Shown in pieces: positions 2,809-39,426 of a DNA stretch of 40,000 bases. The stretch lies in NCBI GenBank assembly GCA_028279865.1, contig JANQMV010000004.1, forward strand, positions 10,602 to 50,601, given 5' to 3'. The notes under the pieces are model-generated. The model saw nothing but the letters and a program-made list of their open reading frames with translations. It had not been told where the DNA came from and did not search any database. Made by a program: the position numbers and the translations under genes. Each line of letters starts with the position of its first letter. Position 1 is the stretch's first letter. Source of the DNA: Candidatus Altimarinota bacterium. GTDB lineage: Bacteria > Patescibacteriota > Gracilibacteria > JANQMV01.

Positions 2809-3972
2809 ATGATTTATTTAGACTACGCTGCAACTACACCGACCGATCAAGAGGTGCTCAAGGCAATGGAACCTTTTTTCACGAAAAAATTTGGAAATCC
2901 GTCTTCCTTGCATATGCTTGGTCAGAAAGCCAAAGGAGAACTTGAGAGTACTCGTCAAAAAATTGCGGAAGAATTAGCCTGTCTACCGGAAGAAATTATC
3001 TTCACATCAGGAGGAACCGAGAGTGATAATTTGGCAATTAAAGGAGTGTTGGAAGCAAAAGGTAAGCCTGCGACAGAAAAGAAACGCGGACATATGATCA
3101 CAACTCAAATTGAGCATCATGCGGTTCTGCATACTTGTGAAGATATGGCTAAACGTGGATTTGATGTCACTTATCTACCGGTTGATCAAAACGGGGTGAT
3201 TAGCCTCAAACAGCTGGAAGAAGCGATTCGAGAAGATACATTGCTGATCTCAATCATGACTGCCAACAATGAGATTGGTGTTATTCAGCCTATTACAAAA
3301 ATTGGTAGAATTGCAAATAAACATAAAATTCCCTTCCATACAGACGCAGTTCAGGCGGGAGGAACTTTTGATTTAAAAGTTGATCATTTAAAGGTTGACC
3401 TACTCTCTCTGTCTGCTCATAAATTTTATGGACCTAAAGGCGTGGGACTGCTGTATGTCCGTAAAGGGATGCGCATCAAACCCCAACAAATTGGAGGTTC
3501 TCAGGAGATGAATCGCCGTGCGTCCACAGAAAATATTCCCGGAATCATTGGTTTAGCCAAGGCTTTGGAAATAGCAAATAAGAGGAAGGAGGATGAAAAC
3601 AAACGTTTGATTAAATTACGTGATTATTTTATCCAAGAAGCCCTCAAACATCTGCCAGACACAAGATTAAACGGACACCCCACCGAAAGATTGCCCAACA
3701 ATGTCAATATTGCTGTGGGTAAGATCGAAGGAGAGTCCCTGCTTTTGCGCCTTGATATGATGGGAATTGCTTGCTCTTCAGGCTCTGCTTGTGCTTCAGG
3801 CTCTCTGGATCCTTCGCATGTGCTTTTAGCAATTGGGCTACCTCATGAAATTGCTCAGGGAAGTTTACGCTTTTCCTTGGGGAAAGATACAACCAAATCC
3901 GATATTGATAAAACTTTGGAAATTTTGAAAAAAGTGGTAAGTGACTTAAGGGCGATGTCGCCTTTGGTTTAA
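2809..3972 (+). CDS. nifS: Cysteine desulfurase (NifS/IscS class, PLP-dependent)
   Basis: 387-aa ORF with the PLP-lysine motif SLSAHKFYGPKG and the active-site loop SSGSACASG. Confidence 0.9.
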   Translation: MIYLDYAATTPTDQEVLKAMEPFFTKKFGNPSSLHMLGQKAKGELESTRQKIAEELACLPEEIIFTSGGTESDNLAIKGVLEAKGKPATEKKRGHMITTQIEHHAVLHTCEDMAKRGFDVTYLPVDQNGVISLKQLEEAIREDTLLISIMTANNEIGVIQPITKIGRIANKHKIPFHTDAVQAGGTFDLKVDHLKVDLLSLSAHKFYGPKGVGLLYVRKGMRIKPQQIGGSQEMNRRASTENIPGIIGLAKALEIANKRKEDENKRLIKLRDYFIQEALKHLPDTRLNGHPTERLPNNVNIAVGKIEGESLLLRLDMMGIACSSGSACASGSLDPSHVLLAIGLPHEIAQGSLRFSLGKDTTKSDIDKTLEILKKVVSDLRAMSPLV

Positions 3973-22492: not shown

Positions 22493-22530
22493 CGTATTAA
22501 AGTAAATTTCCTACAAAAGGGGAACAATAC

Positions 22531-22971
22531 ATGAGAGAAGCATTTCTTTTGACAATCAAGGGCCTCGTCCTTAGCCTGCTCATTCTTTGCCTGAACACAC
22601 CCACCATTGCACAATGCGGCGGAGCAGAAGCAGGCGCGTACTTCGCTGACATCAATGGGAAAAATCTCGGGATTAGAATCAGTGCTGTGATCCTTCCCAG
22701 CGGGTGGGTCCAAGTGCTGAACAAGGATGGATTGAAGACTGGGATTATAATCACCCAAGGCAAGACGGAAAACATAAGCGAAAAGGTGTCCGTTAATGGA
22801 AAAACTCGGGGAGCAGCACCCTTTCTTATGCGGAAGCCTACCATAATCAGTTTTCCTGATGGACGCAAACTGGATGTAGTCAACAGATTCACCGAAGTTC
22901 GGGTCGGTGATACCATCATCAAAAAAACAGGAATCGGCGCCTACATCTACCTTGAAATACAGGAGGGATAA
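22531..22971 (+). CDS. Small secreted protein of unknown function, in a compositionally foreign island
   Basis: 146-aa ORF. An SD-like AAAGGGGA lies 7-14 nt upstream of the ATG. N-terminal signal peptide (LLTIKGLVLSLLILCLNTPTIA|QC). The sense frame has purine-rich first codon positions and G/C-rich third positions. TAA stop followed by two terminators. Confidence 0.6.
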   Translation: MREAFLLTIKGLVLSLLILCLNTPTIAQCGGAEAGAYFADINGKNLGIRISAVILPSGWVQVLNKDGLKTGIIITQGKTENISEKVSVNGKTRGAAPFLMRKPTIISFPDGRKLDVVNRFTEVRVGDTIIKKTGIGAYIYLEIQEG

Positions 22972-23632: not shown

Positions 23633-24838
23633 CTATTTTTTGATTTTAGATACTACACCAGCACCTACGGTTCTACCGCCTTCACGGATTGCAAACCTTA
23701 AACCTTCTGCCATCGCAATCGCAGAGCCAAGTTTTACATCCATTTTAATGTTATCACCAGGCATCACCATTTCTACTCCTTCCGGAAGAACAATTTCTCC
23801 GGTCACATCAGTTGTACGGATGTAGAATTGAGGTTTATAACCTTTGAAGAACGGAGTATGACGTCCTCCTTCTTCTTTTGTTAGTACGTATACTTCAGCT
23901 TCAAATTCTGTATGTGGAGTAATTGTTCCCGGCTTAGCAAGAACCTGTCCACGTTCAATTTCTTCTCTTTCAATTCCGCGTAGAAGAGCCCCGATATTGT
24001 CACCAGCTTGACCTTGATCAAGAAGTTTTTTAAACATTTCCACTCCTGTTACCACTACTTTTCTGGTTTCTTTGATTCCGACAATTTCAACTTCTTCATT
24101 CACTTTAACGATACCTTGTTCAACTCTACCTGTCGCAACTGTTCCACGTCCTTTGATTGAGAAAACGTCTTCAACCGGCATTAAAAATGGTTTATCAAGT
24201 TCACGAACCGGATCCGGCACGTCGTTATCCACAGCTTCCATAAGCTCAAGAATTTTTCCACACCATTCACATTCTTTTTTACCACACATACATTCAAGTG
24301 CTTTCAAAGCCGAACCTCTGATAATAGAAATATCATCACCAGGGAATTCGTATTTAGAAAGAAGTTCGCGTACTTCCATTTCAACCAATTCGACAAGTTC
24401 TTCGTCATCTACCATGTCTACTTTATTCAAGAAGACAACGATATGAGGAACGTTTACCTGACGAGCAAGTAAGATATGTTCACGAGTCTGAGGCATTGGA
24501 CCATCAGCGGCAGAACATACCAAGATTGCACCATCCATTTGGGCAGCACCTGTAATCATGTTCTTTACGTAATCGGCATGACCTGGACAGTCAACGTGAG
24601 CATAGTGACGTTTTTCTGTTTCGTATTCAACGTGAGCTGTTGCAATTGTAATTCCTCTTTCTCTTTCTTCAGGAGCATTATCAATTTGATCAAAAGCTTT
24701 TGCTGTGTTAGCTCCTCCGAAAGCAGCTGCAAGAACGTTTGTAATTGCTGCTGTTAATGTTGTTTTTCCGTGATCAACGTGACCGATCGTACCTACATTC
24801 ACATGCGGTTTACTACGATCAAATGTAGCGTCTGCCAT
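23633..24838 (-). CDS. tuf: Elongation factor Tu with a Cys4 insertion in domain I
   Basis: 401-aa ORF with [15 protein letters not shown] and NKVD motifs. Contains an unusual [14 protein letters not shown] segment. Confidence 0.95.
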
Positions 24839-24914: not shown

Positions 24915-24943
24915 ATTTTAGCAAAAGAGATTTTTGCTGTCAA
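24915..24943 (-). promoter_or_regulatory. Near-consensus sigma-70-type promoter for tuf-rpsJ
   Basis: Minus strand reads TTGACA - 17 nt - TAAAAT (-35 at 24938-24943, -10 at 24915-24920). The spacer is itself a palindrome (GCAAAA-atctc-TTTTGC). Confidence 0.55.
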
Positions 24944-25045: not shown

Positions 25046-28000
25046 TTAAATTCAACCAATTATTGTAAAGATCACAGATCATCTATAAACATCACTCTCC
25101 TGATTGTAATCAATGTTTATGTAATAAAAGAGGTCGTTTTGATCATTTTCAATCCGGCTACCATGTGAAACACCTGTATCAGCCGTACTTGAGAGAGTGC
25201 CGAACGAATTGACTGTGACAGCAGTACTTGTTAGAGCCCAACCAAAACGATTTTCAACATTTTTAGCATCACCTGTAAGTAATTGATTGCCGGTGTTTGT
25301 TGTTCCGTCCAAGACAGCCGATCAGGTCGCAGAATGTCCTGACAAGGCTATACGTAGGGAATATCAATTTTCGTTGTTTGTACTTACGGTTACCGTGTTT
25401 TTTTGTGTGACAGCACCTCCTGTTCCCGCCCAGTTTTGCCCCATTTGAAAGTCAGGGTCAATATTGAAAACCACCGAACCGGTATCTACCGAAGCAACCA
25501 AGGCTTCTTGAAGCTGAACGTTCAAAGCAACTTGTTGTGCTGAGATAGTAATATCAGCCAGACCGCTTTCCAATAGAGTACTACCTGAATTATAGATATT
25601 AATTGTCAATTCATAAACTCAAGTTGAAGCAGGATTTTTTACCTTATTATTACTAAAGCGCATTTCAAGCACGTCACCGACAGCGACACTGCCTGTAATT
25701 GTGGAAACAACCGTAGTTCCTGTGGAGTTTACAAGATCAACGCTACCAGAGATACTTCCGCTTGCTGATTGGACTGTGATATCACTTTCTGCCAAACTGC
25801 CTGTAAATGCATACGCGCCACTGTTAAAAATTACTTCCATCTTATCTCCTGTGTTTAGTTCAATGCTAACGGGAAAATAGACAATATAATTTGTGGTATC
25901 AGCAATACGAATGCTTTCTGCAGAGACAGACCCTCTTTCTCCATTTGTAGTGTCGAAAGTGAAGGTTGCCGAAGCTGTTTTTTCTTCATTTTGAGCAGTA
26001 TCGGTTGCACGGCTTTTAATTGTATAGCGACCTCCATTCGTCCAAACGGGTGAAATATATGTCCAATTTTCCGCACCATCAGCCAACAGCCAGACTTCAC
26101 TAGTTGCGACAAAGCCTGTTCCCGAATACCATTTGTCTGCGGTTAAATCCTTAATACTGACTCTAACGAAATCAACAGCTGTTTGGGCGTCGGAAGCTGT
26201 TCCAATAATTTTGGGTAATGCACTCAAATCATCTCCATCTCTCGGATAGAGAATTTTTGAACTTGGTTCTTGTGTTTCGAGGCTAAAAGTTGCAGTTTGG
26301 GAACTCCAAACACCTTCTCCACTGTCATCATCCCAAAACTTAATTCTCCAATAGTAGGTAATACCTCCGCTTAATTGATCCCCGGCATAAGTAATCGCCT
26401 CGCAGACTGTGTTAACCAAACAACCTGTACCTGACAACGCAGTTCCGCCAGAACCTGAATCCCAAAGAGTCGTACCTGTAAAAGTAGAAGCTGTATTGAC
26501 TTGAATTTGATATTTTAGTGCGATATCCCCAGCATCACTGTCTCGATAAATTGCGGTAAATTCCGGCGTTGGATTAGGGAGATTAATAGGGTTTGCATTG
26601 CTTTCTGTTTTTAAAGTATCGGGGGCAGAGGGTTTCGCGTTTAAATCTGCCAAAAAACTGGCGGTTTCTGTGCTCCAGACTCCTTCGTTACCCTCATCAT
26701 CCCAAAATTTAATCCTATAGTAGTAAGTTGTATTATGAATTAATGTTGCTCCTGAGTAAATAATGTCACTTGAGCGATTCCCTGCGGTGATGTTGGTAAT
26801 CGTCACACCTGTACCCGAATCCCACTCCGGACTTGAGAAATCGCTGTTGTCATCAACCTGAATTTGGTAAGCATTGGCAATATCGCCTGCTTCAGGATCA
26901 TTGTAAATTGCAGAAAAATGTGGAGTGTTCGAGGTGATGCTCACACCTGTACCGGATGTGCCGGATTGGGCGTCTGTGTCATTGACATAAAGTATTGTTG
27001 GCTCTGTCGGAGCCGGATCTTCAGTGTACTTTATCGCTATTTGATTTATTTCCGAAGAATCTGTCTCTCCGTATGGGCTAGATGGTGGAGTGAAGTCTGA
27101 TGTCCAACGGGCTTCACCTTTGGTTATACGGATTTCGTCAAGATAGCCATCGAAATAAGTTGAAGCTGTTGGAACCCCATTTGGAACACCAGCTCAGAAT
27201 GATAATACTCCATCACTATCGACAAAAGTTAATCCTGTCACATCTACAGTCTCCTGAAGAGTACCATTTTGAAATAAGTAAACAGTATTACCACTACGCA
27301 CCATGGCAATGTGATCCCACTGTCCAGCATTAACCGTACCAAACGTCGTGCTTGGCCCCCAAGATGATCCTGTAGTTGATGTATGAAACCCAAAATCAAC
27401 TCCTGACATCACATAAAGTTGAACTGGAGAATAATTAGAAGCAAGTTTTTGTGTCACGAGCGCTTGATGCTCCGTACCAGATATATAATTAACCCAAAAA
27501 TCAATCGTAAAATCCTCACTGCCAAAGTCCCAATCATCACTATCCGGAAGAGTTAAACAATCTCCTGTCCCATCAAAATACATCGCACTTTTGCCAAACT
27601 TATGACTGACACTATGTTTTATGTCTCCATTTGCCGTAACCACATGTCCTGTGGATGCTCCGAAAGAATTGTCTGTAAAACTTGTAGAATTTGATGTTTT
27701 GTCAGATTGCAGTAACAAAACCGTATTCGCATCATTACCTAATCCCAGATCGTACTTGGCAGTCGGTGGCATGAAATTGGAAGTCCAGCGAGCTAAGCCT
27801 TTTGTAACACGTAGTTCATCGAGAAATCATTTCCACTCACTTTGAGGACCTCCCGAGTACTCTGCACCAATCGTAAGCACAGAATCTGAATCAAGCATTG
27901 TATCACCTCCAACGCTATTACTTCACACGTCTTGTCCATCCAAATAAATTGTTATAATATTTCAATTTCGTACTAAAGCAACATGGTGCCAATCATAATC

Positions 28001-31000
28001 CCACGATTGTGAACTAGAATTAAAATTCTTATTTCCACTTTCATTCGACCAAAAATATCCTGTTAAACGATCTCCAATAATTCTAAGTCCAAATGATTCA
28101 TGCATAGATGTATCTAACGAAGTTATAATCCAAGGATTTACACCAATGCCTGATTCTCTTTTGAACCAAGTATCAATCGTAAAATCTCCATTACCAAAGT
28201 CAAAATCATCCGAATCCGGAATACTCAAATAATCTCCCGTCCCATCAAAATACATCGCACTTTTGCCAAACACGGAATTTCGAACATGCTTTACATCACC
28301 ATTTATAGTAATTGCATGACTGCTATCAGAATCATCTGCAAAGGCTGCAGAGCCGTTTTCTGCATCCGAATGAATTAGGAGTTTTGTCTTTTCGTCATTT
28401 CAGTTTGTCACATCATCATTTGCCTGCAAGCTTACTGCTACGTCCAAAGATGTTTGACTCTTGTCAAAACCGCCTGTTTCTACCCAGTCAGAATCCATCA
28501 CAGCAGCAAGGTCATCTGCGGTCATTTGATTATCACGATATTTTGTCGCTTGAGATATGGCAGAATTCGCTGTATCACCACCCAAAGTTTCAGCTAATTC
28601 CCATGTATCCAAACTCGCAGGATAAGATGGAACTGTAAAATCAGAAGTCCAGCGGGCGATTCCTTTAGAAATACGCAGGTCGTCCACATACCCATTTAAA
28701 TAATTGCCTCAATCGCTTGTTTGTCCTCCAACTTGCAGCGGAATGCTTGGATTAACCCAATTTGTTCCTGCACTAATGGAATCTTCAATTAATAATGATC
28801 CATTTAAATATACTTTTAAAACATTTCCCTCTCTTATAATTGCAATATGATTCCATGCATTTTGTATAACTGAATTAGTGGAACTTTGAGTGTTTACTTC
28901 AGCAGTCCCTGCATTGACCATTACCGTATATAAGTTACTATTTTCGATCCTCGTATACCACCTATTGCTGACATCTTCCCATTGACTAATCAAATATTGT
29001 GTCCCGGACAAACTTCTTGGATTCACCCAAAAATCAATTGTAAAGTCTTCGCTTCCAAAATCCCAATCATCACTATCCGGAATGGACAAATAATCATCCA
29101 CTCCATCAAAAGAGAGAGCGTCACCAAACTCATCTGGAAGTCCGGAAATTTTTACATCTCCATTTGCAACTGGTAGATGATTTGAACTTGAAGAATCTGT
29201 AAAAGTTGTCGAGCCTTCTGGTCCATCCATATTTAATAACAATTTTGTATTTATATCTGCAGAATGAGGAATCGTAGGAACTACGATAGAATCAGAATCA
29301 TCACTTTGAGGACTAGCACCATATCTATTATCATGCGTTATTTTTAGACTTTCCATCGCCCCTTCAAAATCATCACCATTCCCATAATTCCCAATCAATA
29401 ATGCCCCTGCAAACGTATCAACATTTGATTCTGAAAGATATTTAACCTGTTGTCCATTCACATATACGCCATATTCATTTCCAATTTTAATTAACGCGAT
29501 ATGTGTCCATTCATTATTGCTCAAAGGATGGTTTGTTCCAGTTATATCAACAATATATGAACCACCACTTCTCATTTCAAAATCTAAGCCACCACCATTA
29601 ATATGGAAGAATCTCCAAAAATTATTAATATCTTCGTACTGAGCTACATAACATTCATCCGTTGTTAAGTCAGTGTGTTTAACCCATAAATCAATCGTCA
29701 TATTCGTTCCAATATCCCAGTCAGTACTATCTGGCAAACTCAAATAATCACCCGTTCCATCAAAATATGCTGCCTGACCAAATCTGGCAGTATCATCCAT
29801 TTTCGTACCACCATTAAAAGTCACATCATGTTCCGATAAAGAACGATCTCCATCAAAATGTAAAAGTAGTTTTGTGTTGCTATCTGGAGTTTGGGCAGAA
29901 ACCGGCGGAGTGAAGTTTGAAGTCCAAAGTGCTTTACCTTTTGTGACACGAACTTCATCAAGTGATCCATTAAAATCAAAAGTTCCTGTATTCCATTGAG
30001 AACCTGTTCTTCCGTGTCCTCTTCCCACCTCAAATTTACCACCATTTACTGTTCCAGAAAGTGAGGTTGTTGTTCCAACAGATTGACCATTCAAATACAT
30101 TGTTATTGTCCCACTATTATTAGCAATAGCAACATGGTGCCAACCTGATTCCAAAAGCACAGAATTGCTAAAATCCGCAATTGTGTTTCAATCTCCCCAA
30201 TAAAATCTTAACAAATTAGAAGATTTTGTCAGCCTGATGCTCCATCAGTTACTTCAACCTACTCCGTCTGTATATGCTAGATGAATCCCATCGTTATTCT
30301 TCTGATTAAACCAATAATCAATAGTCCAATCAGTAGCAAAAGACAAATCCCAATCTTGTGAATCAGGGATAGTTAAATAATCATCCACTCCATCAAACTG
30401 CATCGCCCCACCGATCTTCCCACGATTATCTAACTTCGGATTTCCGTTCGTAGTAATTGCATGATTTGAAGGTGAAGAATCTCCTTCTCCGTGTAAAAGA
30501 AGTTTTATATTTTCATCCTGCCTGAGGTATCCCCATTTACCTGAATCAACGCCAGAAAATCCGGTCGTTGCGTCCACTTTGGAGGCAATTGTTCTCCAAG
30601 CACTTGCAATCTTATCCCAAATTTTGAACTCATTTCTGCCATCAAAACTAAGTGAATAAAAAGAATCTGAATCGTTGCTTAATTCATTTACGCTAACTCC
30701 GTCAATTCCTTGCCAAGCCGAAGTATCCACTTGGTCAGTTGATGTAATTGTAGTGTAGGTTTCCGCTGGCGCGCTTTCTTCAACTGTTCCTACAATTTTT
30801 AAATTGTCTATATATTGAGAACCTCCTGTTGCGCCACCCCATACAACGTAATCATTTCAATCGTAGAAGGAATGTCCTGTTATGTCCAAAGTTTGCCTCT
30901 GGGGCCAGACAAGGCTTGATTCGGAAGGAGAAGGGTACCAAGTCACTTGGTTACCAATTCTTTCTATTTTTACGTAATACCATGTTCATGCTGAGAAGCT

Positions 31001-34000
31001 AAAACCTGAACCCGAAGCGTAAATTATACTGCCTGCATTATTTGTCATTGATAAATTCCAGGTTGAAGTATCCTCTCAGGTTGGAATAAATTTTCAAAGA
31101 GCCAAGGATGTATTACCTGAAAGATTGTTTACTGTTAAGGCTCTTTCAGAGGAACCTTCAGGTCTGATCCAAGCTGTTATAGCAAAATCATGATCTAAAA
31201 CTTGCCCCCACTTTTTCGATGCTTCTGTTTTCCAATGATTAACATCGCTTGATGGTTTATACATAGAATGACTCCCTCCACTGTCAGTTGGCACTGTTGT
31301 ACTAAAATTAGCAGAACCATTCAACGAACTTGTGTAATCACCACTAATAGTGTTCAGATTATTGCCGTCAAATTTATACTCTTCTTCAAAGTTCAGCTTT
31401 GTTTTTACCAATTTAACTTCTCCTTCATCAAATTCCGTAAGATAAATTTCACTTACTACGCCATCAGCGACATGCTCGGACAAAATGACCTGACCGCTCC
31501 CACTACCTTCTCCTTTGATTTCTAAAATATCATAAAATGTTCCATCAACCTTCACCCGACTACCTTCGCGTACCTTAGGACTGTCAATAAAATGCATGAA
31601 GGCTGGAGGTGTAAAATTTGAAGTCCAGCGGGCAAGTCCCTTGGTTATACGAAGTTCGTCAAGATAGCCTTTGATTGACTCATTGCTCATTTTAGAACCA
31701 ATATATAGAGCATCTGAAACATCATCGAGAGCCAATCAAGACGACCAGGTTTCTACAATTTGACCATTGTTAAATGTATAAAAGATATCTCCGGATCGCA
31801 CTAAAGCATAATGGTTAAACCCACTACTTGAAAAGCTTCCCAAGGATTTTCCATTTGCAATATCCCATGATGCACTGTTACTGGACAACCAAGTAACAAG
31901 ATTCCCACTTGGAGCATCAACATCAATCAAAAATGGTCTATGTCCTGAACCATATCTTCTTGTAATTAATCCATTCCCCCATGATCACACTGTGCCATCG
32001 TCCTTATACCAAAAATCAATTGTAAAGTCTCCACTCCCAAAATCCCAATCAGCACTATCATTTAAATGTAAATAATCCCCCGTTCCATCAAAATAAAGCG
32101 AAGTGTTACCCAACTTATTCGCCCCAGTTGAATGTTGAACATCACCATTGACCGTGACTTCTTTGCCAAAAATTGATGTATCTTCAATATTTTTTGATCC
32201 ATCTGTGTTATTCGATTGAATTAAGAGTTTTGTATCTGCACCACTACCAATAGTTACCACCGATCCACTTGCCGTCTCAAAATGACCTGCATTTTCCGGT
32301 GTGAAATTTGAAGACCAGCGAGCAATTCCTTTGGAAATACGAATTGCATCCAAGCGACCATTGAAATAGTGATTGTAGTTATATCTTTGTACTCCAATAT
32401 GCAACATTCATTGACCGTTCAAAATTCCACCAATATGAGTAACTGTATTTAAAAGTTCACCATTAACATATAAAGAAAAAGTGCCTCATTCTCTTACTAC
32501 AGCCACATGGTACCATTCTCATTCATGCATATTGCTAGTTCCAGACAATACTGGCAAGTAACCAGAGTCATCATCCTTGCGAAATAAAGCTCGTAGAGTT
32601 CATCCTTGATGTGCAATAGAAAATGATGCATTCCCATCATTACCGCTAGCTCTACCTTGCCAAAAAATTATATTTTCATTTATTACATCATCTGGATTCA
32701 TCCAAAAGTCAATCGTAAAATCCTCATTCCCAAAGTCCCAATCATCACTATCCGGAAGAGTTAAATAATCTCCACTGCCGTCAAACTTGTAAGCTCCACC
32801 GTATTTTCCATCTGAACTGATCTGCGCATTTCCATTAAAAGTAATTTTGTGATTTGCAGCAGAAGCATCTCATTCAAAATCTAGCAATAGATTTGTATTT
32901 GTAGTAACTGTAGCCGGAACAGTTGGAGGCATAAATCCTGTTTCCCAGAGTGCTTCTCCTTTGGTAATTCGAAGGTCATCCATATAGCCAGTAAAAGGAC
33001 TACTTACTCCATTGTAAATGCCTACATACAAATTTGATGAACTTCCCGAAACAGCTCCCAGATGAGATTGAGGAAAGTTGCTGTCTAATACACCATCAAT
33101 ATAAATTGAAATATCATCCTGGTCTCTGGTTATTGCAAAATGAGTCCATTGATTCAGAGGCACAGTATTTGTCGTCGTATTTACCCAAACATCATTTGGT
33201 CCTAAATACAGAGATATTTGCCTACTGGCAGTAAGCCACACTTGAAAGCCTCTGTTGGCATATGCGCCTTGCTCTAAAATCACGCTAGAACCACCCTTCG
33301 TGTAAATCCACCCATCAATCGTAAAATCTCCATTACCAAAGTCAAAATCATCCGAATCGGGAATACTCAAATAGTCCCCATTCCCATCAAAATAGATTGT
33401 ATCGCCAAAAATATTACTAAATCCTGTAATTTTAGAATCACCCACAGCATTTACTGCATGAACTGTGTTTCCACTATCAGTAAAGCTTGTTGAACCTTCT
33501 GCCCCATCCGCATGAATCAATAGCTTCGTATTCGTATCTGAATTCACTGCAGAAGTCGCCGGAGTAAAATTAGCAATCCAACGAGCATCACCTTTGGTAA
33601 TACGAATATCATCCATATAACCTTTAAAATCAAGTGCTGGGAAATTTGCATATGATCCGATCACTAAATCAGAGATCTCTCCCGTATGATTTCCGGAAGC
33701 CGATGTATCAGTCATTGTGATTTTGCCGTCAAGAAACAAACGTGCAGTACTGCCTGATCTGTTTAAAGCTACATGATACCATTTGTGTGTTTCTAAGTTA
33801 TTCCCAACATTATTCATACTAATCACATCATTCCCACCAGCATAAATATATGCTGCCAAATTACCAGCCGGTTGCATCATAATGCGAATATTCCCATTAT
33901 GACGAGTTGATCCGCCTGTTCCTCCATTTTCCTGACTTGCATGAGGATAATCCTCTCTCGAAATCAATATTTGCTCCCCGATTTGCTCGAAATATACCCA

Positions 34001-35131
34001 AAAATCAATCGCAAAATCACCCGTACCAAAACTCCAATCAGCATGATCTGGAATTTCAAGATAATCTCCTGCTCCATCAAAATAAACTGCTTCGGCAAAC
34101 TTGGTTGTATTTGTAATTACCGGATCACCATTTACCGTCACATCATGCCCCGTATTCCCCCGATCTCCATCGGCGTGTAAAAGAAGTTGTGTCTGCGCAT
34201 CGCTTGAATATTCTCCTACTCCATCATTTACCCAATTTGTAATCTTACGTTTGACATCTTCTTGAGTATAATTTGCCTCATCCGTGAAGGTGATATAAGT
34301 CGTGGGGTCCAAAGCAATGGGATAAACCAAGCCTTTTGTATCGGCAAAAAGCTGAAGCCTTATCAACTCTTCTGTTTGGCTCAAAATTGTCCAGTAAGCC
34401 TTCTCGCTACGTTTGCCTTCTGCATCCAGCATGTATGGCGCCGGATGATACATTGCGACATTTCCTTTCGAATTGTAGTAATTGACTTTTCCTTTTTCTA
34501 TTACTGCGAATAAGTCTGTCTTAATTTCGTATTCAAATTGCCATTTTCCCTCACCGATATAACCGATATTAGTCGCATCAGTACGAGCAGAGTTTGCGGT
34601 AGCAGGTGTAGTGGAGAAATCTTCCTCAGGATCTCTGTTAAGAGGAATTTCTTTCAAAATCAGATCCTCTTTCACCCCTCGCTTCACCACTGTTTTTAGC
34701 ATGTCAACATCATCATAAACCTCCTTGAAAAGCACCTGATTTGCACTCTGTTGGGCAACGGATGGGTTTGCATTGACAGGTGTGATTTTCAGCTGCTCTA
34801 CTTGATTTTCAGCCTGAACTGTTCCTTCTTTGGCACGACTGGAAATAATCTCCGAAGAATATTTTTTATTTAGTTCAATGTTTGCAACTGCAGTCTGCGC
34901 AATAAATAAATCCTTATTCCCTTTTACTTTTTCAAAACTCTTACTCTTGTCACGCAAATCATCCATTCGCATTACTTCGGAAAGTTGTTTAATTTCCGGC
35001 GAGTTAATCTCAGTAGAAAATAAATTTGAAAGCCAGATCGAGGCAAAAATTGTTCAAGTTAATAAAATTGTGATCAAAAAGCTCTTTTTTTTCAGCAAAG
35101 AGAGGATTTCTTTATTTTTTATTGAGAACAT
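25046..35131 (-). CDS. Giant secreted/surface protein, ~3,361 aa under translation table 25 (26 in-frame UGA read as Gly). Signal anchor, then an N-terminal beta-rich domain, ~10 LamG/ConA-like modules, 2 FN3-like modules, an Ig-like module and a C-terminal region of unknown fold.
   Basis: All 12 track ORFs from 25079 to 34972 share one frame (end coordinate mod 3 = 1). I translated every gap by hand. The only interruptions are TGA. The first TAA/TAG in frame is TAA at 25046-25048. Upstream, the frame stays open to ATG 35129-35131 (alternative ATG 35165-35167; TAA at 35168-35170). The N-terminus MFSIKNKEILSLLKKKSFLITILLT-G-TIFASIWLSNLF is a signal anchor. Confidence 0.85.
26279..26938 (-). 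repeat. Two tandem FN3-like beta-sandwich modules inside the giant gene
   Basis: A pattern occurs twice: P.F(S/T)AIY.D..AGDIA..YQIQV...F...WDSG...Y.G..L....TYY(Y/W)RIKFWDD.G.EGVWS...A(S/T)F. Confidence 0.6.
27090..34192 (-). repeat. Tandem array of ~10 LamG/Concanavalin-A-like (Laminin_G_3-type) modules inside the giant gene
   Basis: Ten copies of the core motif (G/E)DFTIDFW(V) and variants (DFAIDFW, DWTIDYW, NMTIDLW, DFAITAW). Each is embedded in ...LLLH.DG...FG.A.YFDG.GDYL.IPDSDDWDFG..DFTIDFW...W.H.A..R.G....Y.NG...GY.D(D/E).RITKG.ARW...FTPP. Confidence 0.75.
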
Positions 35132-35170
35132 GGTTTTTAATAATTTATATTTTGATATTTTTTTCATTTA

Positions 35171-36334: not shown

Positions 36335-36380
36335 TTCAACTTTTTTCTAAAACCTTTTATCAAGAAATAATTGACTCTAA

Positions 36381-36797
36381 ATGCCAAGTTTTCGACATCT
36401 CTCGCGGGTTGTTTCTATGCAAACTTTATTTGAATATAGCATCCGCAAAAATAGTGATCCTCGTAAAATTCTCAAATACAATCTAAAAGTTTTTGCTAAT
36501 AAAGTAGAAGATATCAGCTTTTTAGAGCAGCTTATTTTTGGTGTTATCGAAAATCGAGAAAAAATTGATGACAAAATCAAAAAATATGCGCCGGAATGGC
36601 CAATTGAAAAACTGGCTTTAGTCGAGAGGATTATTCTGGAAATAGGTTTGTTTGAACTCTTATACACAGATGATACTCCGCATGCTGTTATCATTAATGA
36701 AGCTGTTGAAATTGGTAAAAAATACGGAGATGAGAATAGTAATAAATTCATCAATGGAGTTCTAAGTACCGCTAGTAAAAAAATTAAGAAAAAATAA
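36381..36797 (+). CDS. nusB: Transcription antitermination factor NusB
   Basis: 138-aa helical ORF (R..SRVVSMQTLFEY..., ...AVIINEAVEIGKKYGDENSNKFINGVL). Confidence 0.8.
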   Translation: MPSFRHLSRVVSMQTLFEYSIRKNSDPRKILKYNLKVFANKVEDISFLEQLIFGVIENREKIDDKIKKYAPEWPIEKLALVERIILEIGLFELLYTDDTPHAVIINEAVEIGKKYGDENSNKFINGVLSTASKKIKKK

Positions 36798-36800
36798 TCT

Positions 36801-37493
36801 ATGCAAAACGATTATTCTGCTTTGGAGGAAAGCATTGGCATAAAGTTTAAAAAAACAGACTTGTACAACGATGCCTTTACGCACAAGTCTTACATGAATG
36901 AAAACAGAAACATCAAAAAAACTGATAACGAACGGTTGGAATTTTTAGGAGATGCTGTTTTAGAATTAATCGTGACAGAGTTTTTATACTTAAATTATCC
37001 TGATCCTGAAGGCGTTCTGACAAATTGGCGCAGTGCATTGGTAAAAAAAGAAACTCTCGCCAGTATCTCCAGAGAGCTGGAATTAGGTCAGTATCTCTTT
37101 CTAAGCAAAGGAGAAAATGCCACGGGAGGAAGGGACAAAGACTATATCTTAGCCAATACTTTTGAAGCATTGCTAGGGAGTCTTTATTTAGATCATGGTT
37201 ATCCTGTTGCGAAAAAATTTGTTGAAAAAAAACTTCTTATCAAACTTGAAAAAATAATCTCCGACGGATCATATATTGACGCCAAATCTCACTTTCAAGA
37301 AGTTGCCCAAGAAAAGACAGGGATAACCCCAAGCTACAAACTCATCAAAGAAGAAGGTCCTGATCACAATAAAATTTTTACTATGGGTGCCTACATTGAA
37401 AAAAAAATTTATGGTAAGGGATCGGGGTCAAACAAACAAGCCGCTGAGCAAGCCGCAGCGGGAGACGCACTAAAGAAACAAGGCTGGCAGTAG
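36801..37493 (+). CDS. rnc: Ribonuclease III
   Basis: 230-aa ORF with the signature ERLEFLGDAVLE and a C-terminal dsRBD (GPDHNKIFTMGAYI...GSGSNKQAAEQAAA). Confidence 0.9.
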   Translation: MQNDYSALEESIGIKFKKTDLYNDAFTHKSYMNENRNIKKTDNERLEFLGDAVLELIVTEFLYLNYPDPEGVLTNWRSALVKKETLASISRELELGQYLFLSKGENATGGRDKDYILANTFEALLGSLYLDHGYPVAKKFVEKKLLIKLEKIISDGSYIDAKSHFQEVAQEKTGITPSYKLIKEEGPDHNKIFTMGAYIEKKIYGKGSGSNKQAAEQAAAGDALKKQGWQ

Positions 37494-38060: not shown

Positions 38061-39368
38061 TTATTCTGCCCCAATTTCAGTTAAGCACTGGTTTACTAAA
38101 CTCGCATTATAGATCGCCTTACAAATATTGCCGTCACCAGCCTTAAGAGCAGCGTCATATAAGTTTTGGTTGATCTCATTAATACAGGTGTTTTTCAAAT
38201 TATCATCATTTTTAATTTCAGCACATTTTGAAAGACGATCAGAAGCCACTGCTGTACTTTTGATGCGCGCATTTTGGCAGGCTTCATTTTTACTAAGATC
38301 TTGCAAAAAATCACACTGACCCAAGGCTTCATAAATAGTTTCCTGGCAAGTCAGACGCAAAATAGAATCATTAATTCTATTGCAATAATTTGCGTTTAAT
38401 TTATCGGTAGCCAGATCATAATTTCCTTCATCCGTATTAGGGTACTGATCCCAATACATTCCTCCTGAACTTGAGCCTGATGATGAGCTTGAACTGCCTT
38501 GATTTGGCTCGTTCTCTTCGCGGAGGGGATTGTCCGAGGTGTTTGCCGAATCTGATCCACCTGAGGAGCCAGAGCTGCTTGTAGTTAAATTTTCTTCTGC
38601 ATGAGCTGATTCATTTTCAACTGGTGGGGCTGAGTTATCATTCTCAAAACTGTCTTTTTGTTCAATTTCTTCCGCCGGAATTTCAATCATCTCTACTTCC
38701 GTAATTTCTGCTCCTGTAGATAAAACAACTTCGATTTCATCTAAATCATTAAAGTTAATTTCCTCTGAGGGCAGGAGAATTTTTCTTTGGATAAAATCAC
38801 CTTCCTTAATTTTTTCAGTCAAAATAACTTCAACCATTTTTTCATCCGCATCTACGTAATTCCATTCACCTTCACCAGATTCGATTAATTCATCACCACT
38901 GCGGATTTTGATTGTGCCTTGTTTTTTTATCTCTTTAAATAAACCAGTATCACCATCATCAGTCAGAGCATCATAAACAGTCGCTCCACTTGCCAGATAA
39001 ATTTGGAAAAAATCAGGTTGCGTTGTTACGATTCTGCCTGAAGTAATTGCAAGTTTACGATGCATAATTGCTGCTCCGCTGGAGTATTTTATTTCTGTCA
39101 CAATAGGTTCCTCCTTTGATAAAATTTTACCACTACCGGAAAGTAGTAAATCACTGCCCGTAAAAATGTATATTGAATCAGTAAAATTAACCCCCTGATA
39201 ACCATAATCCGTACTATTCAAAATCCTGCCTGCAGGGTTATCAAAAGCAGACTTAAAAAGACTAAAAAGCATTCCGACAAAAAGCAGTAATGCTATAAAA
39301 ATCAATACGATAAGATGTTTTTTATTCATGTCTTTTTTTATTTTGCTATCCACTCTATTTTTTACCAT
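38061..39368 (-). CDS. Membrane-anchored hypothetical protein with an acidic/Ser-rich linker and a Cys-rich C-terminal domain
   Basis: 435-aa ORF with an N-terminal TM helix (HLIVLIFIALLLFVGMLFSLF), SSSGSSGGS / SSSSSSGSSSGG tracts, and nine Cys in the last ~130 aa. Confidence 0.6.
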   Translation of the reverse strand: MVKNRVDSKIKKDMNKKHLIVLIFIALLLFVGMLFSLFKSAFDNPAGRILNSTDYGYQGVNFTDSIYIFTGSDLLLSGSGKILSKEEPIVTEIKYSSGAAIMHRKLAITSGRIVTTQPDFFQIYLASGATVYDALTDDGDTGLFKEIKKQGTIKIRSGDELIESGEGEWNYVDADEKMVEVILTEKIKEGDFIQRKILLPSEEINFNDLDEIEVVLSTGAEITEVEMIEIPAEEIEQKDSFENDNSAPPVENESAHAEENLTTSSSGSSGGSDSANTSDNPLREENEPNQGSSSSSSGSSSGGMYWDQYPNTDEGNYDLATDKLNANYCNRINDSILRLTCQETIYEALGQCDFLQDLSKNEACQNARIKSTAVASDRLSKCAEIKNDDNLKNTCINEINQNLYDAALKAGDGNICKAIYNASLVNQCLTEIGAE

Positions 39369-39426
39369 TCTTCATTAAAAATTCAAAGACAAAATCAAAA
39401 ATAACTCACTTTCTGATTTTGTAAGC

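What the first reader, a model, noticed from the sequence alone, without database searches (positions are those of the whole stretch)
25046..35131. Single ~3,361-aa LamG-array surface protein hidden behind 26 UGA codons, directly upstream of tuf
Under table 25 the fragments fuse into one 10,086-nt gene.

Architecture read from the translation:
- A KKK-charged N-terminus followed by a ~22-aa hydrophobic signal anchor.
- A ~260-aa beta-rich N-terminal domain ending in YPIALDPT.
- About ten tandem LamG/ConA-like lectin modules, each with YFDG.GDYL.IPDSDDWDFG..DFTIDFW and GY.DD.RITKG.ARW..FTPP.
- Two FN3-like modules (YQIQV...WDSG...YYWRIKFWDD.G).
- An Ig-like module (RYTIKSRATDTAQNEE).
- A ~190-aa C-terminal region that I cannot assign.

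I see no LPXTG, PEP-CTERM or other recognisable C-terminal sorting signal, so how it is retained on the cell is unclear.

The gene takes up a quarter of this window. It sits between a BI-1-family gene and the tuf promoter. Episymbiotic or predatory CPR lineages that use this genetic code are thought to depend on large surface proteins for host attachment. A multivalent lectin-like array is therefore a plausible host-glycan adhesin. That role is inference, not something the sequence shows.
Basis: partly seen in the sequence, partly recalled or inferred. Interest (0 to 1): 0.85.

Follow-up and report, generated by a model that had tools for sequence, protein, structure and literature searches.

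The report
Giant lectin-array surface protein, UGA-recoded
This is one real 3,361-residue gene, readable only when UGA is translated as glycine, that encodes a cell-surface protein with about ten lectin-like modules. It ends in a previously unannotated domain that probably docks it to the cell wall in the way 'WxL' proteins of Gram-positive bacteria are docked.

Summary
On the minus strand (35131→25046) there is one 10,086-nt frame with 26 TGA codons, no TAA/TAG, and a TAA stop. TGA falls in glycine columns of the internal repeats. It also pairs with GGN 11 times, and never with TGG, in a collinear orthologue.

Pfam finds nine Laminin_G_3 modules (E=2e-166). There is a tenth, degenerate module, two Rha78A-type Ig domains, and one N-terminal hydrophobic segment. 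There is no LPXTG or PEP-CTERM motif.

What I add is an assignment for the "unassignable" C-terminus:
- It consists of two Ig-like domains followed by a ~165-aa domain.
- That domain belongs to a family of at least 71 protein clusters in which it is always the last domain.
- The family is absent from Pfam, and its predicted fold (pLDDT 92.6) is pilin-like.
- In other bacteria, members sit directly upstream of homologues of the WxL-interacting protein (PGBD–HBD–TM). They occur as "small" and "large" forms, as in Firmicute WxL clusters.

The protein is therefore best read as a giant "large-WxL-like" surface protein. No partner gene lies near it, and the Pfam WxL model never matches. Host-glycan adhesion remains an inference. 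Giant and multi-LamG surface proteins of episymbionts are already published. I rate it a new variant of a known kind, of moderate interest.

The parts
25046..35131 (-). Whole gene: 3,361 codons plus TAA. It has 26 in-frame TGA (Gly). An alternative start ATG lies at 35167.
35012..35131 (-). aa 1-40: N-terminal KKK plus the single hydrophobic segment (aa 16-38). This is a Sec signal peptide or signal anchor.
   Evidence: only Kyte-Doolittle peak >1.5 in the protein; orthologue has the same layout, and conservation starts at INSPE
34187..35011 (-). aa 41-315: conserved N-terminal domain of unknown fold, ending in YPIALDPT. It is 69% identical to the orthologue, with dN 0.24 against saturated dS.
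   Evidence: no family, one homologue, no PDB relative
33542..34186 (-). LamG module 1 (aa 316-530)
32909..33523 (-). LamG module 2 (aa 537-741)
32279..32890 (-). LamG module 3 (aa 748-951)
31589..32227 (-). LamG module 4 (aa 969-1181)
31382..31588 (-). aa 1182-1250: small conserved insert (DSPKVxEGSRVK...), 55% identical to the orthologue, unassigned
30767..31381 (-). aa 1251-1455: degenerate tenth LamG module. The orthologue has a canonical module here.
   Evidence: E=4e-5, partial
30482..30766 (-). aa 1456-1550: conserved insert domain (AETYTTITSTDQVD...), 79% identical to the orthologue with dN 0.15. It is the most conserved part of the protein and is unassigned.
29888..30475 (-). LamG module 5 (aa 1553-1748)
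29282..29869 (-). LamG module 6 (aa 1755-1950)
28613..29242 (-). LamG module 7 (aa 1964-2173). Its closest solved relative is 4qvs_A, an 'S-layer domain-containing protein' (E=1.8e-11).
28382..28612 (-). aa 2174-2250: linker or small domain, unassigned
27749..28381 (-). LamG module 8 (aa 2251-2461)
27062..27724 (-). LamG module 9 (aa 2470-2690)
26276..26989 (-). aa ~2715-2952: two Rha78A-type N-terminal Ig (FN3-like) domains
   Evidence: PF25788, 2 stretches, E=5.7e-20
25946..26269 (-). aa 2955-3062: Ig-like domain (weak Big_13 / OmpL47-type matches)
   Evidence: (beta-sandwich in the model of homologue P0004, pLDDT 60-85)
25550..25942 (-). aa 3064-3194: second Ig-like domain (weak DUF2808-like match)
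   Evidence: (P0004 residues 160-274, pLDDT ~70-88)
25049..25540 (-). aa 3198-3361: C-terminal pilin-fold, WxL-like domain. It is always the last domain in its family. It contains a literal W-A-L at aa 3298-3300.
   Evidence: (E=1.3e-31 to a family HMM built without this sequence)
24915..24943 (-). Context only: best sigma-70-like site (TTGACA-17-TAAAAT, with TG) in the 207-nt gap before tuf (23633-24838, minus strand)

Best explanation
This is one functional gene, translated with UGA as glycine. It encodes a very acidic, cysteine-poor, exported cell-surface protein.

Shown:
- The reading frame, the meaning of UGA, and purifying selection on the gene.
- The domain order: N-terminal signal peptide or anchor; a conserved 275-aa head domain; 9 canonical plus 1 degenerate LamG/ConA-like modules with two small conserved inserts; two Rha78A-type Ig domains; two Ig-like domains; and a 165-aa C-terminal domain.
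- The C-terminal domain belongs to an unannotated family that is always C-terminal, has a pilin-like beta-sandwich fold, and occurs in 'small' forms (signal peptide plus domain only) and 'large' forms.
- In other bacteria, family members are encoded directly upstream of homologues of the WxL-interacting protein (PGBD-HBD-transmembrane helix).

Inferred:
- The protein is exported by Sec.
- The C-terminal domain, which emerges last, docks non-covalently at the cell wall, possibly by beta-strand complementation with a membrane-anchored WxLIP-like partner, as proposed for Firmicute large WxL proteins.
- The Ig stalk and the LamG array then project tens of nanometres outward, with the conserved N-terminal domain at the tip.
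- The array binds glycans or glycoproteins on a host or prey cell or on another surface.
For: Frame and code: 26 TGA and no TAA/TAG in 3,361 codons. TGA falls in Gly columns. There are 11 TGA<->GGN pairs with orthologue L005.

Selection: the orthologue is collinear over 1,640 aa and keeps the Bax1-I synteny. dN is 0.15-0.24 against saturated dS in the non-LamG domains. GC3 is 0.29, against 0.26 for tuf and 0.32 for secY, so the gene is native.

LamG: PF13385 at E=2e-166 with 9 stretches. Similarity to the solved structure 4qvs_A is E=1.8e-11.

Extracellular character: one N-terminal hydrophobic segment only. D+E is 434 against K+R 210, with 4 Cys.

C-terminal family:
- 71 cluster representatives, with the domain ending 3-4 residues before the protein end. 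Most complete members have N-terminal signal-peptide-like starts.
- There is no Pfam or PDB sequence match.
- AlphaFold2 gives pLDDT 92.6 and pTM 0.84.
- Foldseek top hits are chaperone-usher pilins: CfaB E=3e-4 with TM 0.49, then the PapG pilin domain, FimA/F/G, Csu and Caf1.

WxL-type clusters:
- L007 carries a 207-aa small member, a 311-aa member and a 435-aa protein with signal peptide, WxLIP_PGBD (28.2 bits, above the cut-off of 27.3) and a C-terminal TM helix.
- In 5 of 6 metagenome loci with enough downstream DNA, a ~430-aa homologue follows directly. PGBD matches have E=6e-5 to 2.5e-3. HBD matches reach E=1e-6 (29.2 bits, above the cut-off of 28.9). The domain order is the canonical one.

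The same cassette (Rha78A-Ig, Ig, Ig, C-terminal domain) carries other passenger domains in relatives: 1 LamG in L003, and LamG plus other domains in L011.
Against: - The Pfam WxL model (PF13731) never matches any family member, even at E<=10. Homology to WxL is therefore not shown.
- No WxLIP-like gene is found in the 40-kb window, in ~11 kb of extra flank from the same organism, or next to the code-25 relatives L003, L010 and L011. The partner link rests on more distant, standard-code members that are 28-38% identical.
- Fold similarity to pilins is modest (TM 0.43-0.49).
- Signal-peptide cleavage was not predicted with a dedicated tool. If the N-terminal helix stays in the membrane, the topology differs.
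- No ligand, expression or localisation data exist.
- The organism was not identified.
Confidence: 0.6

Rival explanations
1. N-terminally anchored fibre with a pilin-like tip or polymerisation domain. The N-terminal helix is an uncleaved signal anchor that holds the protein in the membrane. The C-terminal pilin-fold domain is distal. It either polymerises or joins a fibre by donor-strand complementation, with the small family members acting as the major subunits. Alternatively it acts as the binding tip.
For: The hydrophobic stretch is ~22 aa, which is long for a signal peptide, and there is no clear AxA site. The Foldseek top hits are pilins that assemble by donor-strand exchange, including the pilin domains of two-domain adhesins such as PapG and CfaE. 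Small members made of the domain alone exist. The family consensus starts with an alternating hydrophobic stretch (V.V.A.V.EAL) that the model leaves without regular structure.
Against: Conservation in the orthologue starts only after the hydrophobic segment, which is 21% identical. That pattern is typical of a cleaved signal peptide. The family's constant partner is a membrane-anchored WxLIP homologue, not a chaperone or usher. In the characterised analogue, the C-terminal domain is the wall-proximal end (PMC9772566).
Confidence: 0.2
2. A carbohydrate-capture or wall-remodelling protein rather than a host adhesin. The LamG array binds environmental or self polysaccharide, and the conserved N-terminal domain is an unrecognised enzyme (glycosidase, lyase or peptidase). 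The protein would serve nutrition or envelope structure in an S-layer-like role.
For: LamG_3 modules commonly accompany glycoside hydrolases, and weak secondary Pfam hits go to sialidase, GH59 and 3-keto-disaccharide-hydrolase lectin domains. The closest solved relative is annotated as an S-layer-domain protein. The N-terminal and insert domains are the most conserved parts at 69-79%, while the LamG cores are 35-45% identical. Firmicute WxL (csc) clusters were first proposed to act in carbohydrate utilisation (title of PMC1534035).
Against: No catalytic family is detected in any unassigned part at E<=10. There is no SLH or other S-layer anchoring domain. The gene is present in one relative and absent from the syntenic site in another, which fits an accessory interaction factor better than a core envelope part.
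Confidence: 0.15
3. Not a single product: either a decayed pseudogene or a set of separate small genes ending at UGA, or an assembly artefact of a repeat.
For: Public gene calls made with the standard code split it into fragments, for example P0005 of 441 aa. TGA is nearly absent from all other genes in the window.
Against: There are zero TAA/TAG in 3,361 codons of a 37% GC genome. TGA pairs with GGN in the orthologue and sits in Gly columns of the repeats. No gene in the window or in L010 uses TGA as a stop. There is strong purifying selection. The DNA repeats are too diverged to collapse. A separate assembly of a public run is identical over the 3' 2.5 kb.
Confidence: 0.03

Closest known systems
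Large WxL proteins (Lwp/CscC/ElrA type) of Lactobacillales and Listeria, with their WxLIP (DUF916-DUF3324-TM) partners
   Same: - N-terminal export signal, then a linear chain of beta-rich adhesion or lectin domains, with the anchoring domain always last.
- The family has 'small' members (domain only) and 'large' members.
- Family members are encoded next to PGBD-HBD-TM proteins (PMC9772566, PMC10599100).
- A literal W-A-L occurs in the window protein (aa 3298-3300), and a W-D-L occurs in the last strand of a divergent member.
   Different: - The Pfam WxL model does not match, and the dual W-x-L signature is not conserved in the family (consensus FGY ... TYT).
- This protein is 3-6 times longer than the 500-1000 aa described for large WxL proteins.
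- The known distribution of WxL is >91% Firmicutes, whereas this is a UGA=Gly organism.
- No WxLIP gene is seen near this gene.
Giant surface proteins of code-25 CPR predators (Vampirococcus lugosii, ten proteins of 1,392-4,163 aa; PMC8080830)
   Same: Same genetic code, same size class and predicted surface location. The role proposed here, host recognition and attachment, is the one published for those proteins.
   Different: The domains named in that paper are WD40, TPR, PKD, saposin, DUF11, integrin and fibronectin, not LamG arrays. No sequence comparison with those proteins could be made here.
Multi-LamG surface proteins of episymbiotic DPANN archaea (nanohaloarchaea, up to five LamG domains; PMC10266531)
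   Same: Tandem ConA-like/LamG modules on secreted or membrane-bound proteins of a small, host-dependent cell, proposed to bind host carbohydrates or glycoproteins.
   Different: Those are archaeal, carry fewer modules and have different anchoring. The resemblance is in logic only.
Two-domain chaperone-usher adhesins (FimH, PapG, CfaE): N-terminal lectin domain plus C-terminal pilin domain
   Same: Lectin part in front and a pilin-fold domain at the C-terminus. The PapG pilin domain and CfaE/CfaB are among the best structural matches.
   Different: No usher or chaperone gene is present in the window or in any related locus examined. TM-scores are only 0.43-0.49 and sequence identity is 9-15%.

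Membership tests
Laminin_G_3 / concanavalin A-like lectin-glucanase superfamily (PF13385) | Significant match to the family profile over the whole module | tested here: met
   E=2.1e-166 and 547.8 bits against a cut-off of 27.6, with 9 stretches. The protein's own module HMM finds 9 full modules plus 1 partial.
Laminin_G_3 / concanavalin A-like lectin-glucanase superfamily (PF13385) | Beta-sandwich jelly-roll fold | not tested
   No module was modelled. Only sequence similarity to the solved chain 4qvs_A was obtained (E=1.8e-11).
Laminin_G_3 / concanavalin A-like lectin-glucanase superfamily (PF13385) | Carbohydrate or other ligand binding | not testable with these tools
   Needs glycan arrays or binding assays.
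Genetic code 25 (UGA = Gly; Gracilibacteria / Absconditabacteria) | In-frame UGA at positions that are Gly in homologues | tested here: met
   UGA falls in Gly columns of the paralogous modules. There are 11 TGA<->GGN pairs and no TGA<->TGG pair with orthologue L005.
Genetic code 25 (UGA = Gly; Gracilibacteria / Absconditabacteria) | UGA not used as a stop codon | tested here: met
   All ~33 other window genes end in TAA or TAG. The 20 genes of relative L010 use 12 TAA and 8 TAG.
Genetic code 25 (UGA = Gly; Gracilibacteria / Absconditabacteria) | tRNA-Gly(UCA) present, release factor 2 absent, phylogenetic placement in those phyla | tested here: inconclusive
   No tRNA gene is in the window. 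Two scans of reference genomes found no relative.
WxL proteins (PF13731 WxL domain; 'large WxL') | C-terminal domain matching the WxL profile, with two conserved W-x-L motifs | tested here: not met
   No PF13731 hit for the window protein or for the 86 family sequences scanned, 38 of them (alignment A4) at E<=10 and 48 (A3) at E<=0.01. Only isolated literal W-x-L motifs occur.
WxL proteins (PF13731 WxL domain; 'large WxL') | The domain is always the last domain, behind a signal peptide and adhesion-type domains | tested here: met
   In the complete family members among the 71 representatives, the domain ends 3-4 residues before the protein end. Most complete members have signal-peptide-like N-termini. 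Partner domains are LamG, Glug, beta-helix, DUF285 and Big.
WxL proteins (PF13731 WxL domain; 'large WxL') | Gene cluster with at least 2 WxL-type genes and a WxLIP gene (PGBD-HBD-TM) | tested here: inconclusive
   Met for standard-code family members: L007, and 5 of 6 informative metagenome loci. Not met at this gene or at the code-25 relatives, within the DNA available.
WxL proteins (PF13731 WxL domain; 'large WxL') | Non-covalent binding to peptidoglycan and to WxLIP | not testable with these tools
   Needs pull-down or cell-wall binding assays.
Chaperone-usher pilins | Incomplete Ig fold completed by a donor strand; usher and periplasmic chaperone genes | tested here: not met
   Fold resemblance only (best E=3e-4, TM 0.49). 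No usher or chaperone gene is present in the window or in any related locus examined.
Sortase (LPXTG) or PEP-CTERM sorted proteins | C-terminal LPXTG or PEP motif followed by a hydrophobic helix and a basic tail | tested here: not met
   No such motif is present. There is no hydrophobic segment after aa 38, and the highest later 19-aa hydropathy mean is 1.12.

The most novel reading that the evidence does not exclude
The C-terminal 165 aa define a so far unannotated domain family with a pilin fold. This family would be the counterpart, and possibly a remote homologue, of the Firmicute WxL domain, working with WxLIP-type partners well outside the Firmicutes, including UGA=Gly CPR-like bacteria. 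If so, giant host-interaction proteins of these tiny cells are held on the wall by a WxL/WxLIP-type strand-complementation dock, and the same 'Rha78A-Ig, Ig, Ig, anchor' cassette is reused to display interchangeable passenger arrays.
Probability: 0.4. Interest if true: 0.65.

Novelty: new variant of a known kind. Interest (0 to 1): 0.5.

Why it matters
Cells that read UGA as glycine are routinely mis-annotated. Public gene calls cut this gene into fragments, so their largest and probably most host-relevant proteins stay hidden.

This case gives a complete anatomy of one such protein. It also gives a testable answer to how it stays on the cell: a C-terminal, pilin-fold, WxL-like dock whose relatives are genetically tied to WxLIP partners.

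If that holds, three things follow:
- A surface-display system known almost only from lactic acid bacteria and Listeria extends to uncultured lineages.
- A profile (alignment A4) becomes available to find the displayed proteins in metagenomes.
- The LamG array, the conserved tip domain and the dock become separate targets for binding studies on episymbiont-host recognition.

The general idea, giant adhesin-like surface proteins in CPR and DPANN symbionts, is already published. The gain is mechanistic detail rather than a new principle.

Tried and rejected
- Reading the coordinates on the + strand gives 156 stops, so I rejected it.
- UGA = Trp (code 4) is rejected. There are no TGA<->TGG pairs, and TGA sits in Gly columns.
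I worked around this with TGA-free substrings and with homologues.
- The first AlphaFold run used P0004 with a 6-sequence alignment. It failed on the last domain (pLDDT ~25). A 38-sequence domain alignment solved it.
- The N-terminal domain (aa 41-315), the two inserts and the linker have no Pfam, NCBIfam or PDB sequence relative. Only one close homologue exists among 5.8 billion proteins.
- Two scans of reference genomes, one with the N-terminal domain and one with the C-terminal subfamily, returned nothing. The organism is therefore unnamed, and exact-sequence look-ups gave no names.
- I looked for a WxLIP-like gene or a second family member in the window, in ~11 kb of extra flank and in related code-25 loci. 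None was found.
- I tried to reach true WxL sequences through plasmid records. DUF916 genes in Clavibacter and Deinococcus have small neighbours, but these match neither Pfam WxL nor the new family (hhalign probability 0.9%).
- Rfam finds nothing in the window.
- Assembly collapse is rejected.
- Recent horizontal acquisition is rejected on GC3.

Full report

Yes. Read on the + strand, the interval 25046-35131 is full of stops: 156 under the standard code and 82 under code 25. The reverse complement is a single frame of 3,362 codons. It holds 26 TGA, no TAA or TAG, and one terminal TAA. The genome is about 37% G+C, so a 10-kb frame free of TAA/TAG cannot be chance.

The gene starts with ATG at 35131. 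A second in-frame ATG lies 12 codons upstream at 35167, directly after the preceding stop, and is equally possible. The gene ends ...ATT GGT TGA ATT TAA at 25046.

**2. What does UGA mean here?**

Two independent lines say glycine.

- Inside the protein, the repeated modules act as their own control. TGA sits where the sister modules have G: K-G-Y/F-x-D-E-x-R at aa 2435, V-R-x-G at 882 and 2390, and L-L-x-x-x-D-G at 754.
- A syntenic orthologue exists on a Logan contig (L005, with Bax1-I divergent upstream). It is collinear for 1,640 residues and has 16 TGA of its own. Across the pair, 11 TGA codons face GGN codons and none faces TGG.

No other gene in the window ends in TGA. The same holds for 20 genes of a close relative, which use 12 TAA and 8 TAG. 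No tRNA gene lies in the window, so the decoding tRNA itself was not seen.

**3. Is it one functional gene?**

Against the orthologue, synonymous sites are saturated (pS 0.56-0.75). Non-synonymous divergence is low in the N-terminal domain (dN 0.24, 69% identity) and in an internal insert (aa 1456-1550; dN 0.15, 79% identity). The LamG cores are 35-45% identical. That pattern is purifying selection on a translated product.

GC3 is 0.29, between tuf at 0.26 and secY at 0.32, so the gene is native.

The internal DNA repeats are only 60-84% identical over at most 111 nt. The nine modules are 29-42% identical to each other. A repeat collapse is therefore not credible. A separate assembly of a public run (Logan, SRR20820735) is 100% identical across the 3' 2.5 kb and the junction with tuf. 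I could not establish whether the window's own record derives from the same reads.

Public gene calls made with the standard code do cut the gene into pieces, for example P0005 of 441 aa. In that sense the protein is "hidden".

**4. Anatomy**

| Region (aa) | Content | Evidence |
|---|---|---|
| 1-40 | K14-K16, then the only hydrophobic segment of the protein (aa 16-38) | |
| 41-315 | Conserved domain ending YPIALDPT; no Pfam, NCBIfam or PDB sequence relative; one close homologue among 5.8 billion proteins | |
| 316-1181 | LamG modules 1-4 | |
| 1182-1250 | Small conserved insert | |
| 1251-1455 | Degenerate LamG; the orthologue has a canonical module here | |
| 1456-1550 | Very conserved insert | |
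| 1553-2173 | LamG modules 5-7 | |
| 2174-2250 | Linker | |
| 2251-2690 | LamG modules 8-9 | |
| 2955-3062 | Ig-like domain with weak Big_13 / OmpL47 matches | |
| 3064-3194 | A further Ig-like domain | |
| 3198-3361 | Last domain (see section 5) | see section 5 |

The Pfam Laminin_G_3 match for the whole protein is E=2.1e-166 with nine stretches. The closest solved relative of a module is 4qvs_A, annotated as an S-layer-domain protein (E=1.8e-11).

The protein is very acidic (434 D+E against 210 K+R) and has four cysteines. It has no LPXTG or PEP motif and no second hydrophobic segment.

"About ten" means nine canonical modules plus one decayed module.

**5.

A word-indexed search with the last 298 aa found only six relatives. 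Among them:

- P0003 and P0004 are complete tails about 40% identical to this one.
- P0001 is 78% identical and comes from a 136-kb JGI contig. There the tail belongs to a roughly 795-aa protein with a signal peptide, one LamG, one Rha78A-Ig and two Ig-like domains. It has six TGA and sits in an unrelated neighbourhood.

A profile of the last ~165 aa, searched exhaustively against 1.84 billion cluster representatives, found 71 proteins (25 below E=1e-10), ranging from short fragments to 1,681 aa. In the complete proteins the domain ends three or four residues before the C-terminus. The consensus is TN..HTIYYxLNVDYxTPAGxYxGTITYTAVPxF, and most complete members start with a signal-peptide-like sequence.

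Pfam covers none of these domains. The passenger domains in front of them include LamG, Glug, beta-helix, DUF285 and Big domains. A PDB sequence search was empty. A family HMM built without the window sequence matches aa 3198-3359 at E=1.3e-31.

**6. Fold of that domain**

With a six-sequence alignment, AlphaFold failed on it (pLDDT about 25). It did give moderate beta-sandwich models for the two preceding Ig-like domains.

With a 38-sequence domain alignment, the model reached mean pLDDT 92.6 and pTM 0.84 and is all-beta.

Foldseek against the PDB returns almost only chaperone-usher pilins:
- CfaB, E=3e-4, TM 0.49.
- The pilin domain of PapG.
- FimA/F/G, Csu, Caf1 and SafD.

**7. Genomic company of the family**

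A small member, P0083 (207 aa, signal peptide plus the domain only), lies in three assemblies. It is followed by two genes:
- A 311-aa member with an Ig domain plus the domain.
- A 435-aa protein with a signal peptide, a WxLIP_PGBD match above Pfam's cut-off (28.2 against 27.3 bits, E=2e-6) and a C-terminal transmembrane helix.

A metagenome scan with a subfamily alignment gave eight more loci. Six of them have enough downstream DNA to judge. In five of those six, a ~430-aa homologue of that protein follows the family member directly. One 8.9-kb locus (L018) has five members and two such genes.

All six of these partner proteins match WxLIP_PGBD near the N-terminus (E=6e-5 to 2.5e-3). Four also match WxLIP_HBD at E<=0.1, three of them in the C-terminal half (best E=1e-6, 29.2 bits against a cut-off of 28.9). 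The order is the canonical PGBD-HBD one.

This is the published definition of a WxL cluster. [quoted passage not shown] WxL is thought to bind peptidoglycan, and a strand of WxLIP is predicted to insert next to the WxL N-terminus (PMC9772566, PMC10599100). Those papers place more than 91% of known WxL sequences in Firmicutes.

I found no paper linking WxL to CPR bacteria. None of the ten top-ranked papers from that search contains the term WxL.

**8. Limits of that link**

- The Pfam WxL model never matches a family member. Homology is not shown, and I do not file the protein as a WxL protein.
- The only sequence-level hints are two. One is a literal W-A-L in the window protein (aa 3298-3300). 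The other is a divergent member from another TGA-recoded contig (L025), which ends ...SGEVDWDLGELMF. It aligns to the family profile with 92.6% probability and puts W-x-L in the last strand.
- No WxLIP-like gene lies in the window, in about 11 kb of additional flank recovered from the same organism, or next to the code-25 relatives. The partner link rests on standard-code members that are 28-38% identical to this subfamily.
- DUF916 genes on Clavibacter and Deinococcus plasmids also have small unannotated neighbours. These match neither Pfam WxL nor the new family.

**9. Most likely mechanism**

Shown: one gene, UGA read as Gly, the domain order, one N-terminal export signal, the family properties of the last domain, and its genetic linkage elsewhere to WxLIP homologues.

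Inferred: the protein is exported by Sec. The last domain to emerge docks at the wall, perhaps with a WxLIP-like partner. The Ig stalk and LamG array project outward with the conserved N-terminal domain at the tip. The array binds glycans or glycoproteins of another cell.

I give the whole chain a confidence of about 0.6. The gene and its architecture are above 0.9, surface display is about 0.85, WxL-like docking is about 0.55, and host-glycan adhesion is about 0.4.

Rivals:
- Retention by an uncleaved N-terminal anchor, with the pilin-like domain distal or polymerising (0.2).
- A carbohydrate-capture or envelope role, with an unrecognised enzyme at the N-terminus (0.15).
- Pseudogene or artefact (0.03).

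**10. Context and conservation**

- tuf follows after 207 nt. That gap holds the best promoter-like site of the region.
- Bax1-I is divergent upstream, followed by the L32, NusB, RNase III and CYTH genes.
- The Bax1-I neighbourhood is kept in orthologue L005.
- A close relative whose EF-Tu falls in the same 90% cluster has shikimate kinase, transketolase and Band_7 genes upstream of tuf, and no giant gene there.
- Position next to tuf is therefore incidental, and the gene is an accessory, lineage-variable feature.
- Relatives reuse the same C-terminal cassette with one LamG (L003) or with LamG plus other domains (L011).

**11. Novelty**

Giant membrane or surface proteins of code-25 CPR predators, proposed to mediate host attachment, are published (Vampirococcus, 1,392-4,163 aa; PMC8080830). 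So are multi-LamG surface proteins of DPANN episymbionts (PMC10266531).

The C-terminal family and its WxLIP linkage make it a new variant of the WxL-type display system, if the link holds for this lineage.

I score interest at 0.5. It is solid and mechanistically suggestive, but it is not a new principle and nothing is functionally tested.

Noticed in passing
whole window; gene 25046-35131 against all other genes: UGA(Gly) is almost confined to the giant gene. It accounts for 26 of 336 Gly codons there, against 1 of 576 in the other ~33 genes (Fisher p=5e-11). A relative's ribosomal-protein operon (L010) has 0 TGA in 3,239 codons, while its large unannotated ORFs (L003) carry 4-7 each. This may reflect selection against UGA in highly expressed genes, or faster GGA-to-TGA drift in fast-evolving surface genes.
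   Followed up: partly
The true N-terminus may be MKKISKYKLLKT-MFSIKNK..., which would give 3,373 aa.
   Followed up: partly
window 22501-22971 (+ strand): A 147-aa ORF with a signal peptide and a lipobox-like IAQC lies on the opposite strand between rpsJ (S10) and rplC (L3) of the ribosomal-protein operon. By eye it is noticeably richer in G+C than its surroundings. It is followed by a GC-rich hairpin and a T-run. It has no Pfam or Rfam match. The close relative L010 has a HATPase_c gene at that position instead. It looks like a small acquired insertion in a normally tight operon.
   Followed up: partly
window 38061-39374 (minus strand): A protein of about 422-438 aa has an N-terminal transmembrane segment, an acidic and Ser/Gly-rich low-complexity middle, and a cysteine-rich C-terminal region. 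It contains the only other TGA in the window and has no Pfam match. It may be another envelope protein.
   Followed up: partly
L018 1-8919 (metagenome contig Ga0307989_1002360): This locus has five genes ending in the new C-terminal domain and two WxLIP-like genes within 8.9 kb. It is the densest cluster of the family seen here.
   Followed up: partly
L025 1-2682 (Logan SRR19843167): This is a TGA-recoded contig with 35% GC. A large protein ends ...SYSGEVDWDLGELMF. It is a divergent member of the family with a literal W-x-L in its last strand (hhalign probability 92.6%). It is followed by a small member, P0012, whose public prediction reads TGA as Trp.
   Followed up: partly
L007 1264-7298: The WxL-type cluster around P0083 lies next to phage-like genes: a weak tail-completion match, an SPP1 Dit-like baseplate protein and Amidase_3. 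This suggests a prophage boundary beside the surface-protein cluster.
   Followed up: no
window 36377-36811 (minus strand): A 145-codon stop-free frame lies antisense to the L32/NusB genes on the + strand. It has an implausible composition and no Pfam match, and is almost certainly not a gene.
   Followed up: partly
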